Below, one piece after another: positions 41,587 to 59,114 of a DNA stretch of 64,000 bases. A program made the translations under genes and the position numbers. Numbering within the stretch: the stretch's first letter is position 1; every line of letters starts with the position of its first letter. Source of the stretch: Eledone cirrhosa (Eukaryota); the NCBI GenBank assembly GCA_964016885.1, contig CAXHJY010000184.1:62001-126000 (forward strand), written 5' to 3'. Below the pieces are notes generated by a model, which ran no database searches, was not told the DNA's origin, and saw only the letters and a program-made list of their open reading frames with translations.

Positions 41587-41907
41587 GTGTAGGACAAAAT
41601 GCTTTATGGTATTTATTTCAGCTGCTTGTGCTCAGAGTAAAAATTCTGCCATGGTTAATAAACTATCAATCAAATAAGTCAGGCGAGCTCAAATCTCATT
41701 GTGGCCTATTTAATCCTTCGCCTATTTTAACACTAACAGCACCTCACTCATGGCTGTCCTTAACAGATTCCACTCTGCTAGGTTTCTGACTTCAGAGACC
41801 TTGAAAATCCTCAGGAGAGCAGCCCTTCCCTTCCTGATTAAAGGATGAACAAGAAAAACTCAAAAAATGTAAACAACAATGAAGAAGATATAACGAAAAT
41901 GTCTTAC

Positions 41908-42188
41908 TTTGTCATGTTTTTTAAAAATTTTTCTAAATCCAGTAAAATTTAAAGTTTGATAATTTTGTAAGAGAATCAAACTGAGATAAAATTCACTGAA
42001 GGCAAGTTTCAGATCATGCATCTTCCGAGTGTTAATAACTTTGGTGTTCTTCTCCTTAAATAACACATGTACACTGCCTCGTCTTCTCCGTAGAGATGTG
42101 TGGTGCAGTGCTTTCTCTTCAAGTTGTGAATATTCTTGCAGCTCTGCATTTAAGGTGGCAAATTTCCAAGTGGCTTCAGCAAATTTTT
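41908..42188 (-). CDS. XPR1: XPR1 coding exon 4: (E)KFAEATWKFATLNAEL...DLKLAFSEFYLSLILLQNYQTLNFTGFRKIFKKHDK (end of SPX domain)
   Basis: Acceptor ttttcttcacAG, donor AAA|GTAAGA, 281 nt, phase 1 to 0. Lies within ORF 41860..42243. Carries the hallmark LKLAFSEFYLSLILLQNYQxLNFTGFRKIxKKHDK with the inositol-phosphate-binding lysine cluster. The four exons total 504 nt (168 aa). Downstream core and EXS exons are not in the window. Confidence 0.97.
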
Positions 42189-42244
42189 CTGTGAAGAAAA
42201 GTGGATAGTGTAGTGTTGATAGCTTTGTTGAAAATATAGACATT

Positions 42245-42825: not shown

Positions 42826-43029
42826 GCAGAAGGGAATACAATTTTCTTACATAAAATAATGATGGAAAGTTTTAATTTAAATATAAACACTTTAAAAATC
42901 AAATAACTTTACATCATAGAACTAGGGCCATCTTTTTGTGGTTTGTTATCAAAAGAGCTAAGATATTGAAATTAATGATATTAGGTAGAAGATAGAGTGA
43001 ACAGGTGAAATAAACAGACTTCTACTCAC

Positions 43030-43131
43030 CTGAGAAAAATGTATTGATCTTTGTCAGTTCTTTTTCACAGAATTGGAAAAAGCTTTCATCAAATCGTGTA
43101 AAATATCTTTTGATAATAGCACTGTCAGTAA
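43030..43131 (-). CDS. XPR1: XPR1 coding exon 3: (V)[33 protein letters not shown] + 1 nt
   Basis: Acceptor caccacAG, donor CAG|GTGAGT, 102 nt, phase 1 to 1. Contains the SPX motif FFxxCEKELxKINTFxS. Confidence 0.95.
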
Positions 43132-43149
43132 CTGTGGTGAGATATCAAA

Positions 43150-45589: not shown

Positions 45590-45713
45590 TAGATATTTAG
45601 CTTTATAAACAAAATAATGTGCAGTGGTGGTGGTGGTGGTGATGATGATAACGATAGAGATGATGATGATAGAGATGATGATGATGAAGTTCAGGATGAT
45701 GTGAGAACCATAC

Positions 45714-45782
45714 CTCATACTGAATATATTGCTTCCGCCACTCTGGAGTTATATGAGCGGCAAGATGCTCAACAAACTTCAT
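45714..45782 (-). CDS. XPR1: XPR1 coding exon 1 (SPX domain start): [23 protein letters not shown]
   Basis: Manual translation of the minus strand. Near-identical to the metazoan XPR1 N-terminus [23 protein letters not shown]. 69 nt, followed by donor GAG|GTATGG. A likely acceptor (tacctgcAG at 45815-45814) sits 31 nt upstream of the ATG. Confidence 0.96.
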
Positions 45783-45889
45783 GCTGGATTAACTATCTGA
45801 CAGCCGGAAATTTCTGCAGGTAATTTACAAAACAAATCAAATTATGATACAATATAGTGAAAACCTGTTCAAAGAACAACTGTTTATAA

Positions 45890-50686: not shown

Positions 50687-51062
50687 CAGTATCGGTAGAG
50701 GGTCGGACGCCATGCTTTGACGCATAGAGTTACGTCCTTTTACGGTCTGAGTTCAAATCCCGCCGAGGTTAACTTTGCCTTTCATCTTTACGGGGTCGAT
50801 AAAATAAAGTACCAGTAATACACTGGGTAATTGCTGGCCTTGTGCCTAAACTAGAAACAATTATTATTATTTGGCAGTATCGGTAGAGGGTCGGACGCCA
50901 TGCTTTGACGCATAGAGTTACGTCCTTTTACGGTCTGAGTTCAAATCCCGCCGAGGTTAACTTTGCCTTTCATCTTTACGGGGTCGATAAAATAAAGTAC
51001 CAGTAATACACTGAGTAATTGCTGGCCTTGTGCCAAAAATAGAAACAATTATTATTATTATT
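50687..51062 (+). mobile_element. Two near-identical tandem tRNA-derived SINE copies (188-bp period) with (TTA)n tails
   Basis: cagtatcggtagagggtcgg starts at 50687 and 50875. Internal Pol III B-box GAGTTCAAATCCC. 3' fragments of the same family at about 51299-51412, 53914-53970 and 56813-56922. Confidence 0.85.
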
Positions 51063-51721
51063 ATTGTTCATATAAGTTAATATATTATTATTTTGATGAT
51101 GCAAAATTAACAACTGGTTTTATTCTTAATTCAATTAACAACCGCTGTTATTTGCCAAGTTATTGAAGTAGACGGCAATTGTGCTCCAGAATGACCATGA
51201 TCATTTAAACATGTTTTCATTGTAGTTTGGTGTTGTATTGTAGAATATATTTAGAATAAAAACTGTCGTTAATTTTGCCATAACCTAATATTAATGTAAG
51301 TTCAAATCCCGTCGAGGTTAACTTTGCCTTTTATCCTTATGGGGGTCGATAAAATAAAGTACCAGTAATGTACTGAGAAATTGCTGGCTTTGTGCCAAAA
51401 GTAGAAATAATTAATGTAAGTTGAAAACCTAAGAATTAGTATTAAAGGGCACTACAACGCTATTAGCTGTCAGTCGAAGCAGCCGATGAAAGCAAAACAT
51501 CGTTTATTTCCGTATTACTACCACGCGTAAGTGGAGTTACTTAACTGAAAAAAAATTTTTTTTTCACGCGTTTTTATTAATTTTTTTATTAAAGCATATA
51601 GATGTAAGTGGAGTTACTTAAATGAAAATATAGGTGGCCCTTAAAAGGGCCAAATTAGAATATACCGCTACGTTTTAACAGTTTTACTAGTTACACATAC
51701 ACACACACATATATATATATA

Positions 51722-53270: not shown

Positions 53271-53474
53271 GGAAAAATAGCGCCAAACTTTTCCTTTTGA
53301 AAGAATAATGTGATTTGTCACGTGATAGTACTTCTCAATATGTGTATACGTATATACGTATACACATATTTAGAGGTAATGTGTATACGTATATACGTAT
53401 ACACATATTTAGAGGTATTATCACGTGACAAATCACATTATTCTTTCAAAAGGAAACGTTTGGCGCCATTTTTC
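53271..53474. repeat. Near-perfect palindrome of about 200 bp (foldback/MITE-like) with a central tandem duplication
   Basis: gaaaaatagcgccaaacttttccttttgaaagaataatgtgatttgtcacgtgata is mirrored at 53419-53474. The centre atgtgtatacgtatatacgtatacacatatttagaggta occurs twice. Confidence 0.85.
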
Positions 53475-53682: not shown

Positions 53683-54030
53683 TTTATCTGATGAAAGCGG
53701 TGGCCCATGATAAATATAGTTTCCATTTATTAATATATTATATATATATATGTATGTATGTATGTATGTAAAAAAAAAATTATCACCAATTAAATGTATT
53801 AAACTTCTGTAATACATTTGAAAATTTACATTGAGCCTTTTCTCCTTCCGGCTAGTACTTAGTACTACCATCCATATTTATAATCATATATAAGTATAAA
53901 TATTATTATTATTCAGTAATGCACTGGGTAATTGCTGGCCTTGTGCCTAAAGTAGAAACAATTATTATTACTATGTATGTATATGTATATATATAATATA
54001 AGATCAAAAGGTGGTTAAAAGAGTTCCATG

Positions 54031-54101
54031 TATTTTATTATGCGCATTTCAAAAACAAATATCATCATGCGATGACATTTGCGTTTTCGTCAGATAAAAT
54101 A
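54031..54101 (-). ncRNA. Minimal type I hammerhead ribozyme motif (mirror copy)
   Basis: Exact reverse complement of the motif at 56362-56432. Confidence 0.72.
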
Positions 54102-54269
54102 GGGAGACATGATATGAAGGTTAAAAAACACTTGTGAATAGTGCAGTTTTAAATCAACATATGAAAAGTAATTTAAGATTGATATGTGATATTGGGGCAA
54201 AAATGAGGGGGGTGGGGTGGAAAGGATGAAAAAGAGGAGATGAGAGTAAAGAATGGTGGGGGAGGAGTA

Positions 54270-55653
54270 CAGTGGCGGATTTAAGGAATAGGGCCCAGTC
54301 GGCATTGGTCAGTAAGGAGGTCCCAGAGTGAAAATTAAAGTACCTTCTTTTCGAGCGAGTATTGAAAAAGTTTTTTTTTTAATTTCCCATTTAGCTACCA
54401 ATAATCATTAAGAAGACAATTAAATTACAAGTACACTTTATTTGAAACAAACAAACAGATGTGCTGTACTGTAAACAAATAATAAAGTAATAAAGTTGTA
54501 TATATGTTAGTCTTTTACACAAATTGCTTTTACATGCGCAGAATTCTGCGAGCTTTAACAGTTGAAAAATGAGTTATAGCGTGGTCCAAGTTTACTGATT
54601 TAGTAATTTTGTTTTCAATTGCCAGCAGGGCAAAACTGGATAGCCTCTCCTGGCCCATCGTTGAACGAAGATAATTTTTTATTCTTCGTAGAACACTGAA
54701 AGAGCGTTCCGCACTTGCTATGCCAATTGGTAAAGTGAGAAATAGCCTTACCAGAATTTCAAACTCGGGAAAGACATCACACAAGTCATTGTTCAGTAAA
54801 AATTTCAGATATGGCATAACCCTACTTTGTTTTAAAGCTGCGTTTGGCTGTGAAAAGTAGAGGCCAATGAAAGAAAAGAGTTCATTTCTGAGTTCCAGTG
54901 TGAATTCATTTGGAAAGTTATCTACCAATGTTGCTACATGTGTTTTTAGTTCATCATCTGAGCATTTAGCCAGTCGATTTGGACTCAAAAATCCAAAGAT
55001 TGAAGATATTTTTTTTATTCCTTCAGTTCGGGCTCTCATCTCCCCAATCATACTATCCAGTGATTGAAAATAAATTGCAGTGCGATATCTATCTGAAGCA
55101 GTAGCTAGTCTTTCAACACCACAAACTTCACCATCCATAATCTTTCTTCTCCTTACTCGCGTTATTTTAAAATCAGCTTCAGATGCATCAAATCCCACGT
55201 CATTCCAGGCTTTCTTTGTCTGGTCCACAAATTGTTCAAATTTGTGATCGCATCTGAGTTCTTCCAATTTATCTGTTGAACGTTCAAAGCACTGTCACAA
55301 GGAATAAATCAAAAAGAAACTAAAAAAAAACCCAAGAAACTAACAAAAATATCAACAAAAAAACAAAACAATGAAACTAACAAAAACGTTTCAAATAAAT
55401 AAATAAATCTATATTTCTTTTAACGGCTAAAAAAAAGGGAATGTAAATTTGTTGGAATAGCCTCATTTCAGCAGCCAGCAGCGAAGTTATTTAGCCTCAT
55501 ATCAGCAGCGAACAGCGAAGTTATTTAGCCCTAGGCATGGAGGAGGTATTTTTGGATATCGCCCAAATTACAATTTTTTTTTTTTGCAAGCGCCCAGTCG
55601 GCAGGGGCCCAGTCGGCATTTGCCACCTTCGCCACCTGTTAAATCCGCCACTT
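54270..55653 (-). mobile_element. Internally deleted hAT-superfamily DNA transposon (1384 bp)
   Basis: TIRs CAGTGGCGGATTTAA / TTAAATCCGCCACTt (terminal base mismatched). Perfect 8-bp TSD GAGGAGTA at 54262-54269 and 55654-55661. Subterminal GCCCAGTCGGCA motifs at both ends. Confidence 0.95.
54530..55267 (-). pseudogene. C-terminal fragment of a hAT transposase (ZMYM1/Tip100-like) with the hAT dimerization domain
   Basis: FPEFEILVRLFLTLPIGIASAERSFSVLRRIKNYLRSTMGQERLSSFALLAIE is the typical hATC motif. The N-terminal DNA-binding and most catalytic regions are missing, and there is no true ATG start. Confidence 0.9.
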
Positions 55654-56361
55654 GAGGAGTATAATAAGGAAGGATGAGATAGGAGAGATGGGTGATAGAG
55701 AGAGAGAGATAGCTTTTATAACTGAGAAAAATATATTGTTTTACAGAGAGAGGTTAAAAAGCCGTTGGAAGATAATATATAAATTAAAAGAATTTAAAAA
55801 TTAATGAAAAGAAAAAATTAAGGTTTGTATATTGAAGGGTTTAATAATATGTGCGATGAAAAGAAATTGTTAATATATATTAAGAATAATGTTAAATTAA
55901 GGTTTAACACATTATTAAACCCTTCAATATACAAACTTTAATTTAACATTATTCTTAATATATATTAACAATTTCTTTTCATCGCACATATTATTAAACT
56001 CTTCAATATACAAACCTTAATTTAACATTATTCTTAATTTTTTTCTTTTCATTAATTTTCAAATTCTTTTCATTTATATATTATCTTCCAACGGCTTTTT
56101 AACCTCTCTCTCTGTAAAACAATATATTTTTCTCAGTTATAAAGGCTATCTCTCTCTTTCTATCACCCATCTCTCTTCCTATCTCATCCTTCCTTATTAT
56201 ACTCCTCCCCCTCCATTCTTTACTCTCATCTCCTCCTCTTTTTCATCCCCCCCCCCTCATTTTTTTCCCAATATCACATATCAATCTTGAATTACTTTTC
56301 ATAAGTTGATTTAAAACTGCACTATTCACAAGTGTTTTTTAACCTTCATATCATGTCTCCC

Positions 56362-56432
56362 TATTTTATCTGACGAAAACGCAAATGTCATCGCATGATG
56401 ATATTTGTTTTTGAAATGCGCATAATAAAATA
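56362..56432 (+). ncRNA. Minimal type I hammerhead ribozyme motif
   Basis: Order of elements: stem I UAUUUUAU, core CUGACGA, stem II aaacgcaaaugucauc-gcau-gaugauauuuguuuuu, core GAAA, palindromic stem III UGCGCA, UA cleavage site (AUA triplet), stem I' AUAAAAUA. Confidence 0.75.
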
Positions 56433-56551
56433 CATGGAACTCTTTTAACCATCTTTTGATCTTATTATTTATACTCCAGTCCCACAAACTGTAGAGTGGT
56501 ACTTATCCGATATCTGCATTGCTCTTTATTGTACTACAATAAAACTCACCT

Positions 56552-56608
<57 letters not shown>

Positions 56609-56771: not shown

Positions 56772-57272
56772 AAATGGGCAAATGATACCGTCTTTCTTGT
56801 TTATTATTATAACCCACCGAGGTTAACTTTGCCTTTCATCCTTATGGGGTCGATAAAATAAAGTAGCAGTAATACACTGGGTAATTGCTGGCCTTGTGCC
56901 AAAGTAGAAACAATTATTATAATAAAACTCCGGATAAACATAAACTGTTGATATTAAACTTATGAAAGAGTCGGCAAATTTTCAATCAACCAACTTTCCT
57001 TAGTTGAATAAATATATGTATGTATATATAGACGTATTTTTTCTTTAATATTGCAACATTAAAGGAATATATCCTTCTGAAAGAATCGCGAGCAATTTAT
57101 AATGTTATTTAAGCATTGGTAATTATTTATGTATATATTTAAAACATATTTGCTGTTATTCTACTGTAAATATATTATATATACGCAAATAATGAATCTG
57201 TATATTAAAACATCGTTGTATTATTCAATCAGTTTATTGAACAACTAGAATGCTCATCGTCAAGTACTTTAT

Positions 57273-57662: not shown

Positions 57663-57727
57663 TGTAATCTGAATTTTATAGATGTAATCTGAATAGTATG
57701 TTAGAATATTAAGTGTTAAGTGTTAAT

Positions 57728-57766
57728 TGAACAAGTACTTTCATGCTTTCGCAATCTTCAAGTTCA
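57728..57766 (-). ncRNA. Degenerate minimal hammerhead motif in the PLE 3' repeat (core UUGAAGA)
   Basis: UGAAC-UUGAAGA-uUGC GAAA GCAu-GAAA-GUAC-UU-GUUCA. The first core C is mutated and the palindromic stem III is intact. Confidence 0.5.
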
Positions 57767-58053
57767 TATTCTGTGGTGACAGTCAAGTTTGCAATTTTCA
57801 ACTGTAATGAGATGGGTAAATTTTGTGCCTTATATACAGAGAAAAGCGGCTACAGAATGCTATATTTTGCAAACTGTATTTCGACCAATTGGTGTGTAGT
57901 TTCACTGGATTACTGAAGCTGATTGGTTTAGGCGTCATGGTTGGTTGAGCATGTCTAACGACTTCTATTTGGCTCTATCCAAAGCATCAATTGTTTTGCT
58001 ATTTTTAGAAATGATGTAAATAGCATTTTCTAGGGTTTTTATACCCCTAAGAA

Positions 58054-58344
58054 TTATAATTGTTCATTTAGCTTGGGTTGGAATTTATCAATAAAATTCT
58101 TTTCTTTGATTTTTCTCTTGATTTCACTTGGCCTGTGTAATTTGTAGAATGGAAATATAAATATTTTCTGACCACATGTTGCTAGATGGTTACTCAGGGG
58201 TATCTGACGGACATTTGGGTCTCTGATTTGCTGTCGGTGCACCCGTGCACGTTCCGATAGTGCATTTCCAGTTTGACCGACATATAGTTCTTCACAATTC
58301 GGGCATTTAATGCAGTAAATTAGATTTCTGCTTTTGTAGTTCAT
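58054..58344 (-). pseudogene. GIY-YIG endonuclease domain fragment of a Penelope-like element
   Basis: NLIYCIKCPNCEELYVGQTG...RARVH...H...E..FIDKFQPKLN: xIYxxxCxxC...YVGxT, RxxxH and a terminal PxLN, as in PLE GIY-YIG domains. The RT is absent. Confidence 0.9.
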
Positions 58345-58650
58345 ATTTGCATTTGGGAATATTTTTCAAAATTCCAACCCAAACTAAATGAACAATAATA
58401 ATTCTTAGGGGTATAAAACCCTAGAAAATGCTATTTTCATCATTTCTAAAAATAGCAAAACAATTGATGCTTTGAATAGATGCCAAATAGAAGTTGTTAG
58501 ACATGCCCAACCAACCGTGATGCCTAAACCAATCAGCTTCAGTAATCCAGTGAAACTACACATGTAGCCGCTTTTCACTGTATATAAGGCACAAAATTTA
58601 CCCATCTCATTACAGTTGAAAATTGTAAACTTGACTGTCACCACAGAATA

Positions 58651-58689
58651 TGAACCTGAAGATTGCGAAAGCATGAAATTACTTGTTCA
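58651..58689 (+). ncRNA. Degenerate minimal hammerhead motif in the inverted PLE repeat (core CUGAAGA)
   Basis: UGAAC-CUGAAGA-uUGC GAAA GCAu-GAAA-UUAC-UU-GUUCA. The core is intact and the stem III palindrome is mutated. Confidence 0.5.
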
Positions 58690-59114
58690 ATTAAAACTTA
58701 ACACTTAATATTCTACCATACTATTTCATTCTAATACCATTATAATTTTAAAGGATTGTAAATAAAACGAGTAAATCAGACAAAGTTGTAAAAGTCTGAG
58801 AGATTGGCTACATATGTTTTATATATATATTTTTTTTGTTTAGATGGAAGACAAAACAAAGAAGATGAATACAAAGATGAATACAAAGATGAAGATAAAG
58901 ATGAAGAACCTCACTGCACCGCACTGCACAACACCACACTGCACAACACCACACTGCACCGCACCACATCACACCACACCCCATAAAAATAATACAACAC
59001 TACACCACACTACTCCACTCCACATAAAAACACACCACAACACACCACACTACTCCACTCCACATAAAAACACACCACAACACACCACTCCACACACACC
59101 ACATAACACCCAAC

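What the first reader, a model, noticed from the sequence alone, without database searches (positions are those of the whole stretch)
53998..56465. Foldback structure with two identical outward-facing minimal hammerhead ribozymes
Seen: each arm ends in a complete type I hammerhead (CUGACGA, GAAA, AUA site, 8-bp stem I, long stem II, and the palindrome UGCGCA in place of stem III). The 71-nt motif is identical in both arms, while the flanks differ by several substitutions and indels. Known: Penelope-like elements and related non-autonomous retrozymes carry minimal type I hammerheads with a palindromic stem III that cleave as dimers. Inference: this is an ORF-less PLE terminal-repeat or retrozyme-like unit. 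A transcript from either strand would be a long hairpin with a potential self-cleavage site near its 3' end, close to the putative XPR1 promoter.
Basis: partly seen in the sequence, partly recalled or inferred. Interest (0 to 1): 0.72.

Follow-up and report, generated by a model that had tools for sequence, protein, structure and literature searches.

The report
Mirrored Penelope retrotransposon ends with hammerheads
This is an ordinary truncated insertion of a very abundant jumping gene: two mirror-image copies of its tail end, each carrying the element's hammerhead RNA motif, later split by a second transposon, and the predicted hairpin would bury the ribozymes rather than let them cut.

Summary
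Both hammerhead motifs are real and identical. They are the 3' pseudo-LTR ends of a high-copy Penelope-like retrotransposon (PLE), not an ORF-less retrozyme. Other copies carry a 798-codon RT-endonuclease ORF between two such hammerheads. It shows most Hydra-clade marks, and its predicted fold is closest to telomerase RT. The motif class has 42,528 genomic matches (reversed control 0). Outward-facing pairs are routine: 23 of 99 neighbouring matches. The 1.38-kb middle is a later hAT insertion with an 8-bp duplication; a paralogous locus shows the empty site. Without it the insertion is a 1.17-kb foldback in (TA)n, with the PLE tail on one arm only. Both arms share four rare variants, so one template likely gave both. 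Stem II covaries across subfamilies, so the family keeps the ribozyme. At this locus each transcript holds one sense copy, predicted fully paired to its antisense arm. The XPR1 link looks incidental: the block is a segmental duplicate, 8.2 kb from a truncated gene copy. Such opposite-strand pairs are already published. The scan noted similar two-armed insertions elsewhere in this genome.

The parts
53998..54269 (-). Left arm, outer part: 3' end (pLTR) of the PLE, short terminus, no tail, abutting TA-rich DNA
54031..54101 (-). Type I hammerhead motif, predicted cut after 54039
54262..54269 (+). 8-bp target-site duplication of the hAT element, left copy (GAGGAGTA)
   Evidence: single copy at the empty site in L045
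54270..55653 (-). Non-autonomous hAT DNA transposon, 15-bp terminal inverted repeats (1 mismatch), transposase C-terminal fragment at 54533-55294
   Evidence: PF05699 E 2.1e-9; dispersed 95-99% copies; ends
55654..55661 (+). 8-bp target-site duplication, right copy
55662..55905 (-). Left arm, inner part: PLE 3' UTR, 5'-truncated within a 79-bp repeat
55907..56465 (+). Right arm: PLE 3' UTR/pLTR, 5'-truncated within the 79-bp repeat; head-to-head junction at 55905-55907
56362..56432 (+). Type I hammerhead motif, predicted cut after 56424; palindrome AUGCGCAU at 56416-56423
56466..56555 (+). PLE tail (about 90 nt); in full-length copies this sequence leads from the 5' hammerhead toward the ATG
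56556..56602 (.). (TA)n target microsatellite

Best explanation
The feature is a head-to-head pair of 5'-truncated 3' ends of an abundant Penelope-like retrotransposon, likely of the Hydra clade and likely made in one insertion event, later interrupted by a hAT transposon, and its two hammerheads are predicted to be inactive passengers here. Shown: the arms are the 3' UTR/pLTR of an ORF-bearing family; they sit in (TA)n; one arm has the tail and the other does not; both share rare variants; the hAT came later. Inferred mechanism: the element's endonuclease cut (TA)n on both strands. Its reverse transcriptase primed from both free ends on one RNA, or on RNAs from one donor, starting at two fixed sites about 40 and 130 nt downstream of the ribozyme cut site. 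Both cDNAs stopped early in the 79-bp repeat and were joined. The template must have spanned the cut site, so it was uncut or re-ligated. In tandem full-length copies the hammerheads are co-oriented 3.55-3.71 kb apart. There they would likely cut as a dimer through the palindrome, or with protein help, 219 nt upstream of the ATG. The surrounding block was then segmentally duplicated, and one version came to lie upstream of XPR1.
For: Family: 1309 candidates for a 171-nt probe, 40 scored, best 98-100%. ORFs of 798+ codons; in L052 and L053 one lies between two co-oriented hammerheads. Arms match L052 at 87-90%, and tblastn finds no ORF remnant in the window. ORF motifs YRDD, DKT, CxCX5C, CxxC and CxH present, CCHH absent, as defined for Hydra. 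Model pLDDT 81.6; top five Foldseek hits are TERT or Candida telomerase chains, best E 1.7e-8. Architecture: 23 of 99 adjacent motif pairs face outward within 6 kb, against 7 inward and 9 same-strand. 16 of those 23 have identical motifs (read by eye). The tail is on exactly one arm in 13 of 15 outward pairs from 64 loci (one of the 15 is a paralogue of this insertion). Four variants rare in 17 dispersed copies occur in both arms of all four paralogous loci compared; one truncated arm covers only three of them. The hAT empty site is in L045. Folding: duplex with the antisense arm -110.3 kcal/mol against -11.2 for the hammerhead fold, and 71 of 71 bases paired to the other arm. Literature: inverted 5'-truncated copies and one-sided tails (PMC8557442; PMC3846280); opposite-strand hammerhead pairs (PMC4209133); two RT start sites, both-strand extension and uncut RNA as the main substrate in vitro (PMC11167929).
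Against: The ORF itself has no Pfam hit (only 3 of 36 aligned proteins hit GIY-YIG), and the PDB sequence search found nothing meaningful. TM-scores to TERT are low (0.28/0.36). The Hydra RWK motif reads RWI, and the unit is longer than the usual <3 kb. No tree with labelled references was built. Shared variants also fit a DNA-level inverted duplication or self-priming. The folding is an equilibrium prediction. No target-site duplication can be resolved in (TA)n.
Confidence: 0.88

Rival explanations
1. Same PLE identity, but the second arm arose by self-priming or template switching during reverse transcription, or by a later DNA-level inverted duplication, not by priming from both ends of a break.
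For: Arms share rare variants. Some short pairs have palindromic junctions (L011). PMC3846280 interprets junction palindromes as self-priming (passage).
Against: The arms end at two different fixed termini, with the tail on one side in 13 of 15 pairs. A plain copy would not be expected to choose the family's second terminus. Most junctions are asymmetric.
Confidence: 0.3
2. A non-autonomous retrozyme or MITE-like unit that moves as this foldback and replicates through a self-cleaved RNA.
For: No ORF in the window. The foldback occurs at several loci. 12 of 23 outward pairs have motif starts only 143-198 nt apart, so a short recurrent form exists in the family.
Against: The other copies of this foldback that were fetched share kilobases of flank, so they are segmental duplicates. 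There is no tandem array of co-oriented monomers. Arm lengths vary continuously up to whole ORFs.
Confidence: 0.05
3. The hairpin or ribozyme has been co-opted to regulate XPR1, for example by cleaving or folding the pre-mRNA if the promoter lies further upstream.
For: SPX exons lie 8-12 kb away on the minus strand. An acceptor-like site before the ATG leaves the promoter position open. The block also sits upstream of the only EXS-bearing gene found.
Against: At that gene (C5:19.33 Mb) 1 kb of the foldback is deleted and one palindrome base is changed. A paralogue has a core change at U16.1 (L045). The block also occurs where no SPX exon was seen at the expected place (L118). The window's gene copy is cut off by a 27-bp satellite.
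Confidence: 0.03

Closest known systems
Hydra-clade Penelope-like elements, including Hydra-1_Obim of Octopus bimaculoides (Craig et al. 2021, PMC8557442; passages, section 11 and parts of the supplement seen)
   Same: Single ORF with RT then C-terminal endonuclease; DKT, CxCX5C, CxxC/CxH, no CCHH; sense hammerhead in the 3' end; (TA)n targets; 5'-truncated inverted copies (Penelope-13_HM is listed with a hammerhead on both strands).
   Different: Longer unit (3.55-3.71 kb) with an Asn-rich linker and a 79-bp repeat in the 3' UTR; RWI for RWK; 36-nt stem II with a conserved C-pyrimidine mismatch and an even 8-nt palindrome. Its hammerhead and protein differ by eye from Hydra-1_Obim, so it is a different family.
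[quoted passage not shown]
   Same: Type I topology, long helix II, palindromic helix III, thousands of dispersed copies, and pairs on opposite strands about 100-700 bp apart attributed to truncated PLEs.
   Different: A-U rather than the usual G10.1-C11.1 closing pair, and an 8-bp stem I. The spacing here is stretched to 2.3 kb by the hAT insert.
Poseidon PAc of Anolis (Frangieh et al. 2024, PMC11167929; parts 1-2 of 4 read)
   Same: Two fixed 3' termini defining a tail, AT-rich targets, ends downstream of the ribozyme cut site.
   Different: Different clade. Here the tail is about 90 nt and lies wholly in the 5' UTR, and the ATG is 219 nt after the cut site rather than inside the ribozyme.
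Metazoan non-LTR retrozymes (bioRxiv 10.64898/2026.07.22.740005, part 1 of 5 read; PMC7229834 seen only in the search listing)
   Same: Non-coding stretch with a type I hammerhead of PLE origin.
   Different: Retrozymes are head-to-tail tandem monomers. Here there is one copy per strand, head-to-head, continuous with an ORF-bearing element in other copies.

Membership tests
EN+ Penelope-like element | Single ORF with telomerase-like RT | tested here: met
   In other copies of the family: 798-aa ORF, YRDD, TERT best fold match E 1.7e-8. No Pfam RT hit. Absent from the window itself.
EN+ Penelope-like element | C-terminal GIY-YIG endonuclease | tested here: inconclusive
   Motifs LIYEC...YFGST...FKARLYNH seen; Pfam GIY-YIG hits only 3 of 36 aligned proteins, not this ORF.
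EN+ Penelope-like element | pLTRs in partial tandem, inverted 5'-truncated copies, one-sided tail | tested here: met
   L052 and L053 tandem; 23 of 99 outward pairs; tail on one arm in 13 of 15.
EN+ Penelope-like element | Sense hammerhead in the pLTR | tested here: met
Hydra clade | DKT in place of DKG; CxCX5C linker; CxxC and CxH; no CCHH | tested here: met
   Positions 123, 657, 757 and 785; CCHH pattern absent.
Hydra clade | N-terminal RWK motif | tested here: inconclusive
   RWI at 37: RW kept, K replaced.
Hydra clade | (TA)n insertion preference | tested here: met
   Ends run into (TA)n in most copies printed.
Hydra clade | Generally shorter than 3 kb (a tendency in the paper, not a strict criterion) | tested here: not met
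   Hammerhead-to-hammerhead 3,709 and 3,550 nt.
Hydra clade | Groups with Hydra in an RT tree | not testable with these tools
   Labelled reference proteins were visible only in a paper supplement and were compared by eye.
Type I hammerhead ribozyme | Complete core C3-A9, G12-A14, A15.1-U16.1, H17 | tested here: met
   core invariant in 32 of 32 aligned variants apart from position 7, but the core was part of the search pattern.
Type I hammerhead ribozyme | Stems supported by covariation | tested here: met
   Stem II (free in the pattern): 4 of 4 alignable pairs change on both sides, 96.9% of cells paired. The 32 rows fall into about four subfamilies, so independent events are few. Stems I and III were fixed by the pattern and are no test.
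Type I hammerhead ribozyme | Rfam hammerhead model match | tested here: not met
   None at E<=1; the long stem II is the likely cause (inference).
Type I hammerhead ribozyme | Self-cleavage | not testable with these tools
   Needs an in-vitro assay or RNA end data.
Non-LTR retrozyme | Head-to-tail tandem of at least two hammerhead-bearing non-coding monomers | tested here: not met
   One motif of this family per strand in the window, head-to-head.
hAT transposon (inner insert) | Short terminal inverted repeats, 8-bp target duplication, hAT transposase homology | tested here: met

The most novel reading that the evidence does not exclude
This locus is one of likely thousands of two-armed insertions that record a Hydra-type PLE reverse-transcribing one uncut or circular RNA from both ends of a (TA)n break, at two fixed start sites 90 nt apart. 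With open full-length ORFs in the same genome and a ribozyme whose stem II covaries across subfamilies, the family would be a ready system to test how PLEs integrate and why they keep a ribozyme that their templates have not used.
Probability: 0.45. Interest if true: 0.42.

Novelty: new member of a known kind. Interest (0 to 1): 0.18.

Why it matters
The locus itself is a decayed repeat with no sign of a host role, so it matters little. The family has modest value. It extends a recently named PLE clade with a very high-copy cephalopod member that has open ORFs, a long-stem hammerhead variant that Rfam misses, and many paired arms on which the integration mechanism can be tested statistically. 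That the host is an octopus-type cephalopod is inferred from a recalled SINE and from the only named homologue (Argonauta hians).

Tried and rejected
Rfam scan: no hammerhead hit; the miRNA hits are low-complexity hairpins below threshold. Pfam and PDB sequence searches with the ORF gave no direct hit. Expression: no RNA holder listed. The four runs laid were contigs of unknown kind from one study and cannot show ends or strand, so they are no evidence either way. ADAR editing of the arms: rejected. The right arm has 2 A>G among 15 changes and the left arm 3 T>C (A>G on the + strand) among 11; C>T leads in both. Selection on the ribozymes at this locus: not supported. The window's arms differ at 0 of 71 ribozyme bases against 7 of 146 flank bases, but paralogues carry ribozyme changes and identical motifs are the norm in young pairs. 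A perfectly symmetric junction: found in at most 1 of 9 close pairs printed (L011 by eye). Earlier notes by sequence: none. A paper on this family: the search 'penelope, octopus, hammerhead' listed four papers, of which only PMC8557442 is relevant; Repbase and Dfam could not be searched. The pair count used a strict pattern and missed some pairs seen by BLAST (L010, L028, L035, L036).

Full report
Observation. The two motifs exist as described: + strand 56362-56432 and - strand 54101-54031, identical over 71 nt within a 147-nt identical run. The outer arms are 240 nt and 95% complementary. Rfam does not detect them. A tight pattern for this motif class matches 21,446 + 21,082 places in the 3.0-Gb genome, against 0 for the reversed control.

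True anatomy. The middle, 54270-55653, has 15-bp inverted ends, an 8-bp duplication and a hAT dimerisation domain (E 2.1e-9), and it occurs as dispersed 95-99% copies. A paralogous locus, L045, has the same flanks and a single copy of the 8-mer, so the hAT came later. Removing it leaves a foldback of about 1.17 kb with its junction at 55905-55907, inside a 79-bp repeat. The left arm ends in TA-rich DNA about 40 nt past the cut site. The right arm carries about 90 nt more, to about 56555, and then (TA)n.

Family. A 171-nt probe gave 1309 candidates; the 40 scored gave best matches of 98-100%. Copies share the 3' end and vary at the 5' end, many with an inverted partner. Upstream lies an ORF; 5 of 96 scored matches had frames of 808-816 codons. 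In L052 and L053 it sits between two co-oriented hammerheads 3,709 and 3,550 nt apart, and in L052 the ATG is 219 nt after the upstream cut site. The window's tail is the sequence between that hammerhead and the ATG. The arms match L052 at 87-90%, and no ORF remnant is in the window. The protein has YRDD, DKT, CxCX5C, CxxC and CxH, and no CCHH. These are the marks given for the Hydra clade, along with (TA)n targeting (PMC8557442 section 11). RWK reads RWI. Pfam misses the ORF, and so does a PDB sequence search. The AlphaFold model (pLDDT 81.6) finds telomerase RT first (E 1.7e-8, low TM-scores). 37 homologues of 28-41% identity were found; the one named entry is from Argonauta hians. An Octopus Hydra family is listed in the paper's supplement with a different hammerhead.

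The arrangement is ordinary. Among the first 100 listed motifs, 23 of 99 neighbours face outward within 6 kb, 7 face inward and 9 are co-oriented. By eye, 16 of the 23 have identical motifs and 22 are of one subfamily. In 64 fetched loci, 13 of 15 outward pairs have the tail on exactly one arm (one pair is a paralogue, and the pattern missed some pairs). Inverted truncated copies with one-sided tails are the described PLE pattern (PMC8557442, passages; PMC3846280, passages). Opposite-strand hammerhead pairs were reported in 2014 (PMC4209133).

Is the ribozyme real? At family level it probably is. Stem II was unconstrained in my search, yet all 4 alignable pairs show double changes and 96.9% of cells pair (32 sequences, about four subfamilies). 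A C-pyrimidine mismatch is kept at the fourth position. Two copies co-fold through the 8-bp palindrome at -44.9 kcal/mol, against -15.8 for each monomer's best fold; the monomeric hammerhead fold is -11.2. Published PLE ribozymes cut weakly, as dimers or with protein. At this locus each strand has one sense copy, transcribed after its antisense partner. The duplex is -110.3 kcal/mol, and the minimum-energy fold of the 2.57-kb region pairs 71 of 71 bases with the other arm on both strands. Paralogous copies carry ribozyme changes, one at U16.1.

Mechanism (inferred). Both arms of all four paralogous loci compared share four variants that are rare in 17 dispersed copies (one truncated arm covers three). 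One donor therefore likely templated both arms. Their 3' ends fall at the family's two fixed termini, both downstream of the cut site, so the template spanned an uncut or re-ligated ribozyme. This fits the in-vitro behaviour of an anole PLE: two internal start sites, extension on both strands, and uncut RNA as the main substrate (PMC11167929). I favour priming from both ends of a break in (TA)n, followed by joining of two truncated cDNAs; self-priming or later duplication remains possible. Earlier scan notes on other repeats in this genome reach a similar reading. They are unchecked and are not counted as support.

Context. SPX-domain exons lie at 45606-45788, 43025-43144 and 41863-42243 on the minus strand (the two short ones are below the Pfam cut-off). 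A 27-bp satellite follows, so this XPR1-like copy is a 5' fragment. EXS exons were found only at C5:19.28-19.29 Mb. The ATG is 8.2 kb from the foldback and has an acceptor-like site before it, so the promoter is unplaced. The block holding the foldback occurs four times on this contig and also at C5:19.33, C5:12.49, 12.84 and 13.06, C3:260.67, C3:335.6 and C4:84.05 Mb. A further match at C5:12.67 Mb was not fetched. Next to the EXS-bearing gene 1 kb of the foldback is deleted, and at C5:12.84 no SPX exon was seen at the expected place. A role at XPR1 is unsupported, though untested with RNA.

Verdict. Real motifs, a known kind of element and a known arrangement. This is a family not found in the papers searched, with modest value as a test system. 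Interest 0.18.

Noticed in passing
window 57692-58725: A second, unrelated PLE foldback. A GIY-YIG fragment with C/H residues lies at 58057-58365 (-) (PF01541 E 1.9e-7). A short type I hammerhead is at 58656-58684 (+); the opposite-arm copy has C3 changed to U.
   Followed up: partly
G000:C1, first 15 Mb; L010, L011, L061, L085, L088, L097: 12 of 23 outward pairs have motif starts 143-198 nt apart, and many arms begin about 63 nt upstream of the hammerhead (window about 56301). This may be a defined RNA 5' end or a short non-autonomous form.
   Followed up: partly
L045:2100-3280 and L005:450-1230: In the hAT-free paralogues the 79-bp unit at the foldback centre has expanded to about 10-14 tandem copies; in L045 a Gypsy-like element also sits inside.
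   Followed up: no
window 1-40551: 27-bp satellite, about 1,500 copies, 95% matches, cutting off the XPR1-like gene after its third SPX exon.
   Followed up: partly
G000:C211 (118, 287, 420, 595 kb) and C5:12.49-13.06 Mb: Large repeats spaced 133-219 kb apart; the unplaced contig may be a duplicated array or an alternative haplotype.
   Followed up: partly
L054, L060, L062, L066, L068, L070; one search list: Several other hammerhead families lie next to these elements. At least three related subfamilies share stem I and the core but have unrelated, compensated stem II sequences.
   Followed up: partly
window 53272-53474: 96-nt inverted repeat with an internal 39-nt direct repeat, probably a small MITE-like element; source of the sub-threshold miRNA hits.
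   Followed up: no
window 50687-51059, 51300-51420, 53914-53968, 56813-56920: Copies of an abundant SINE-like repeat, recalled as octopus-type (name from memory, not tested).
   Followed up: no
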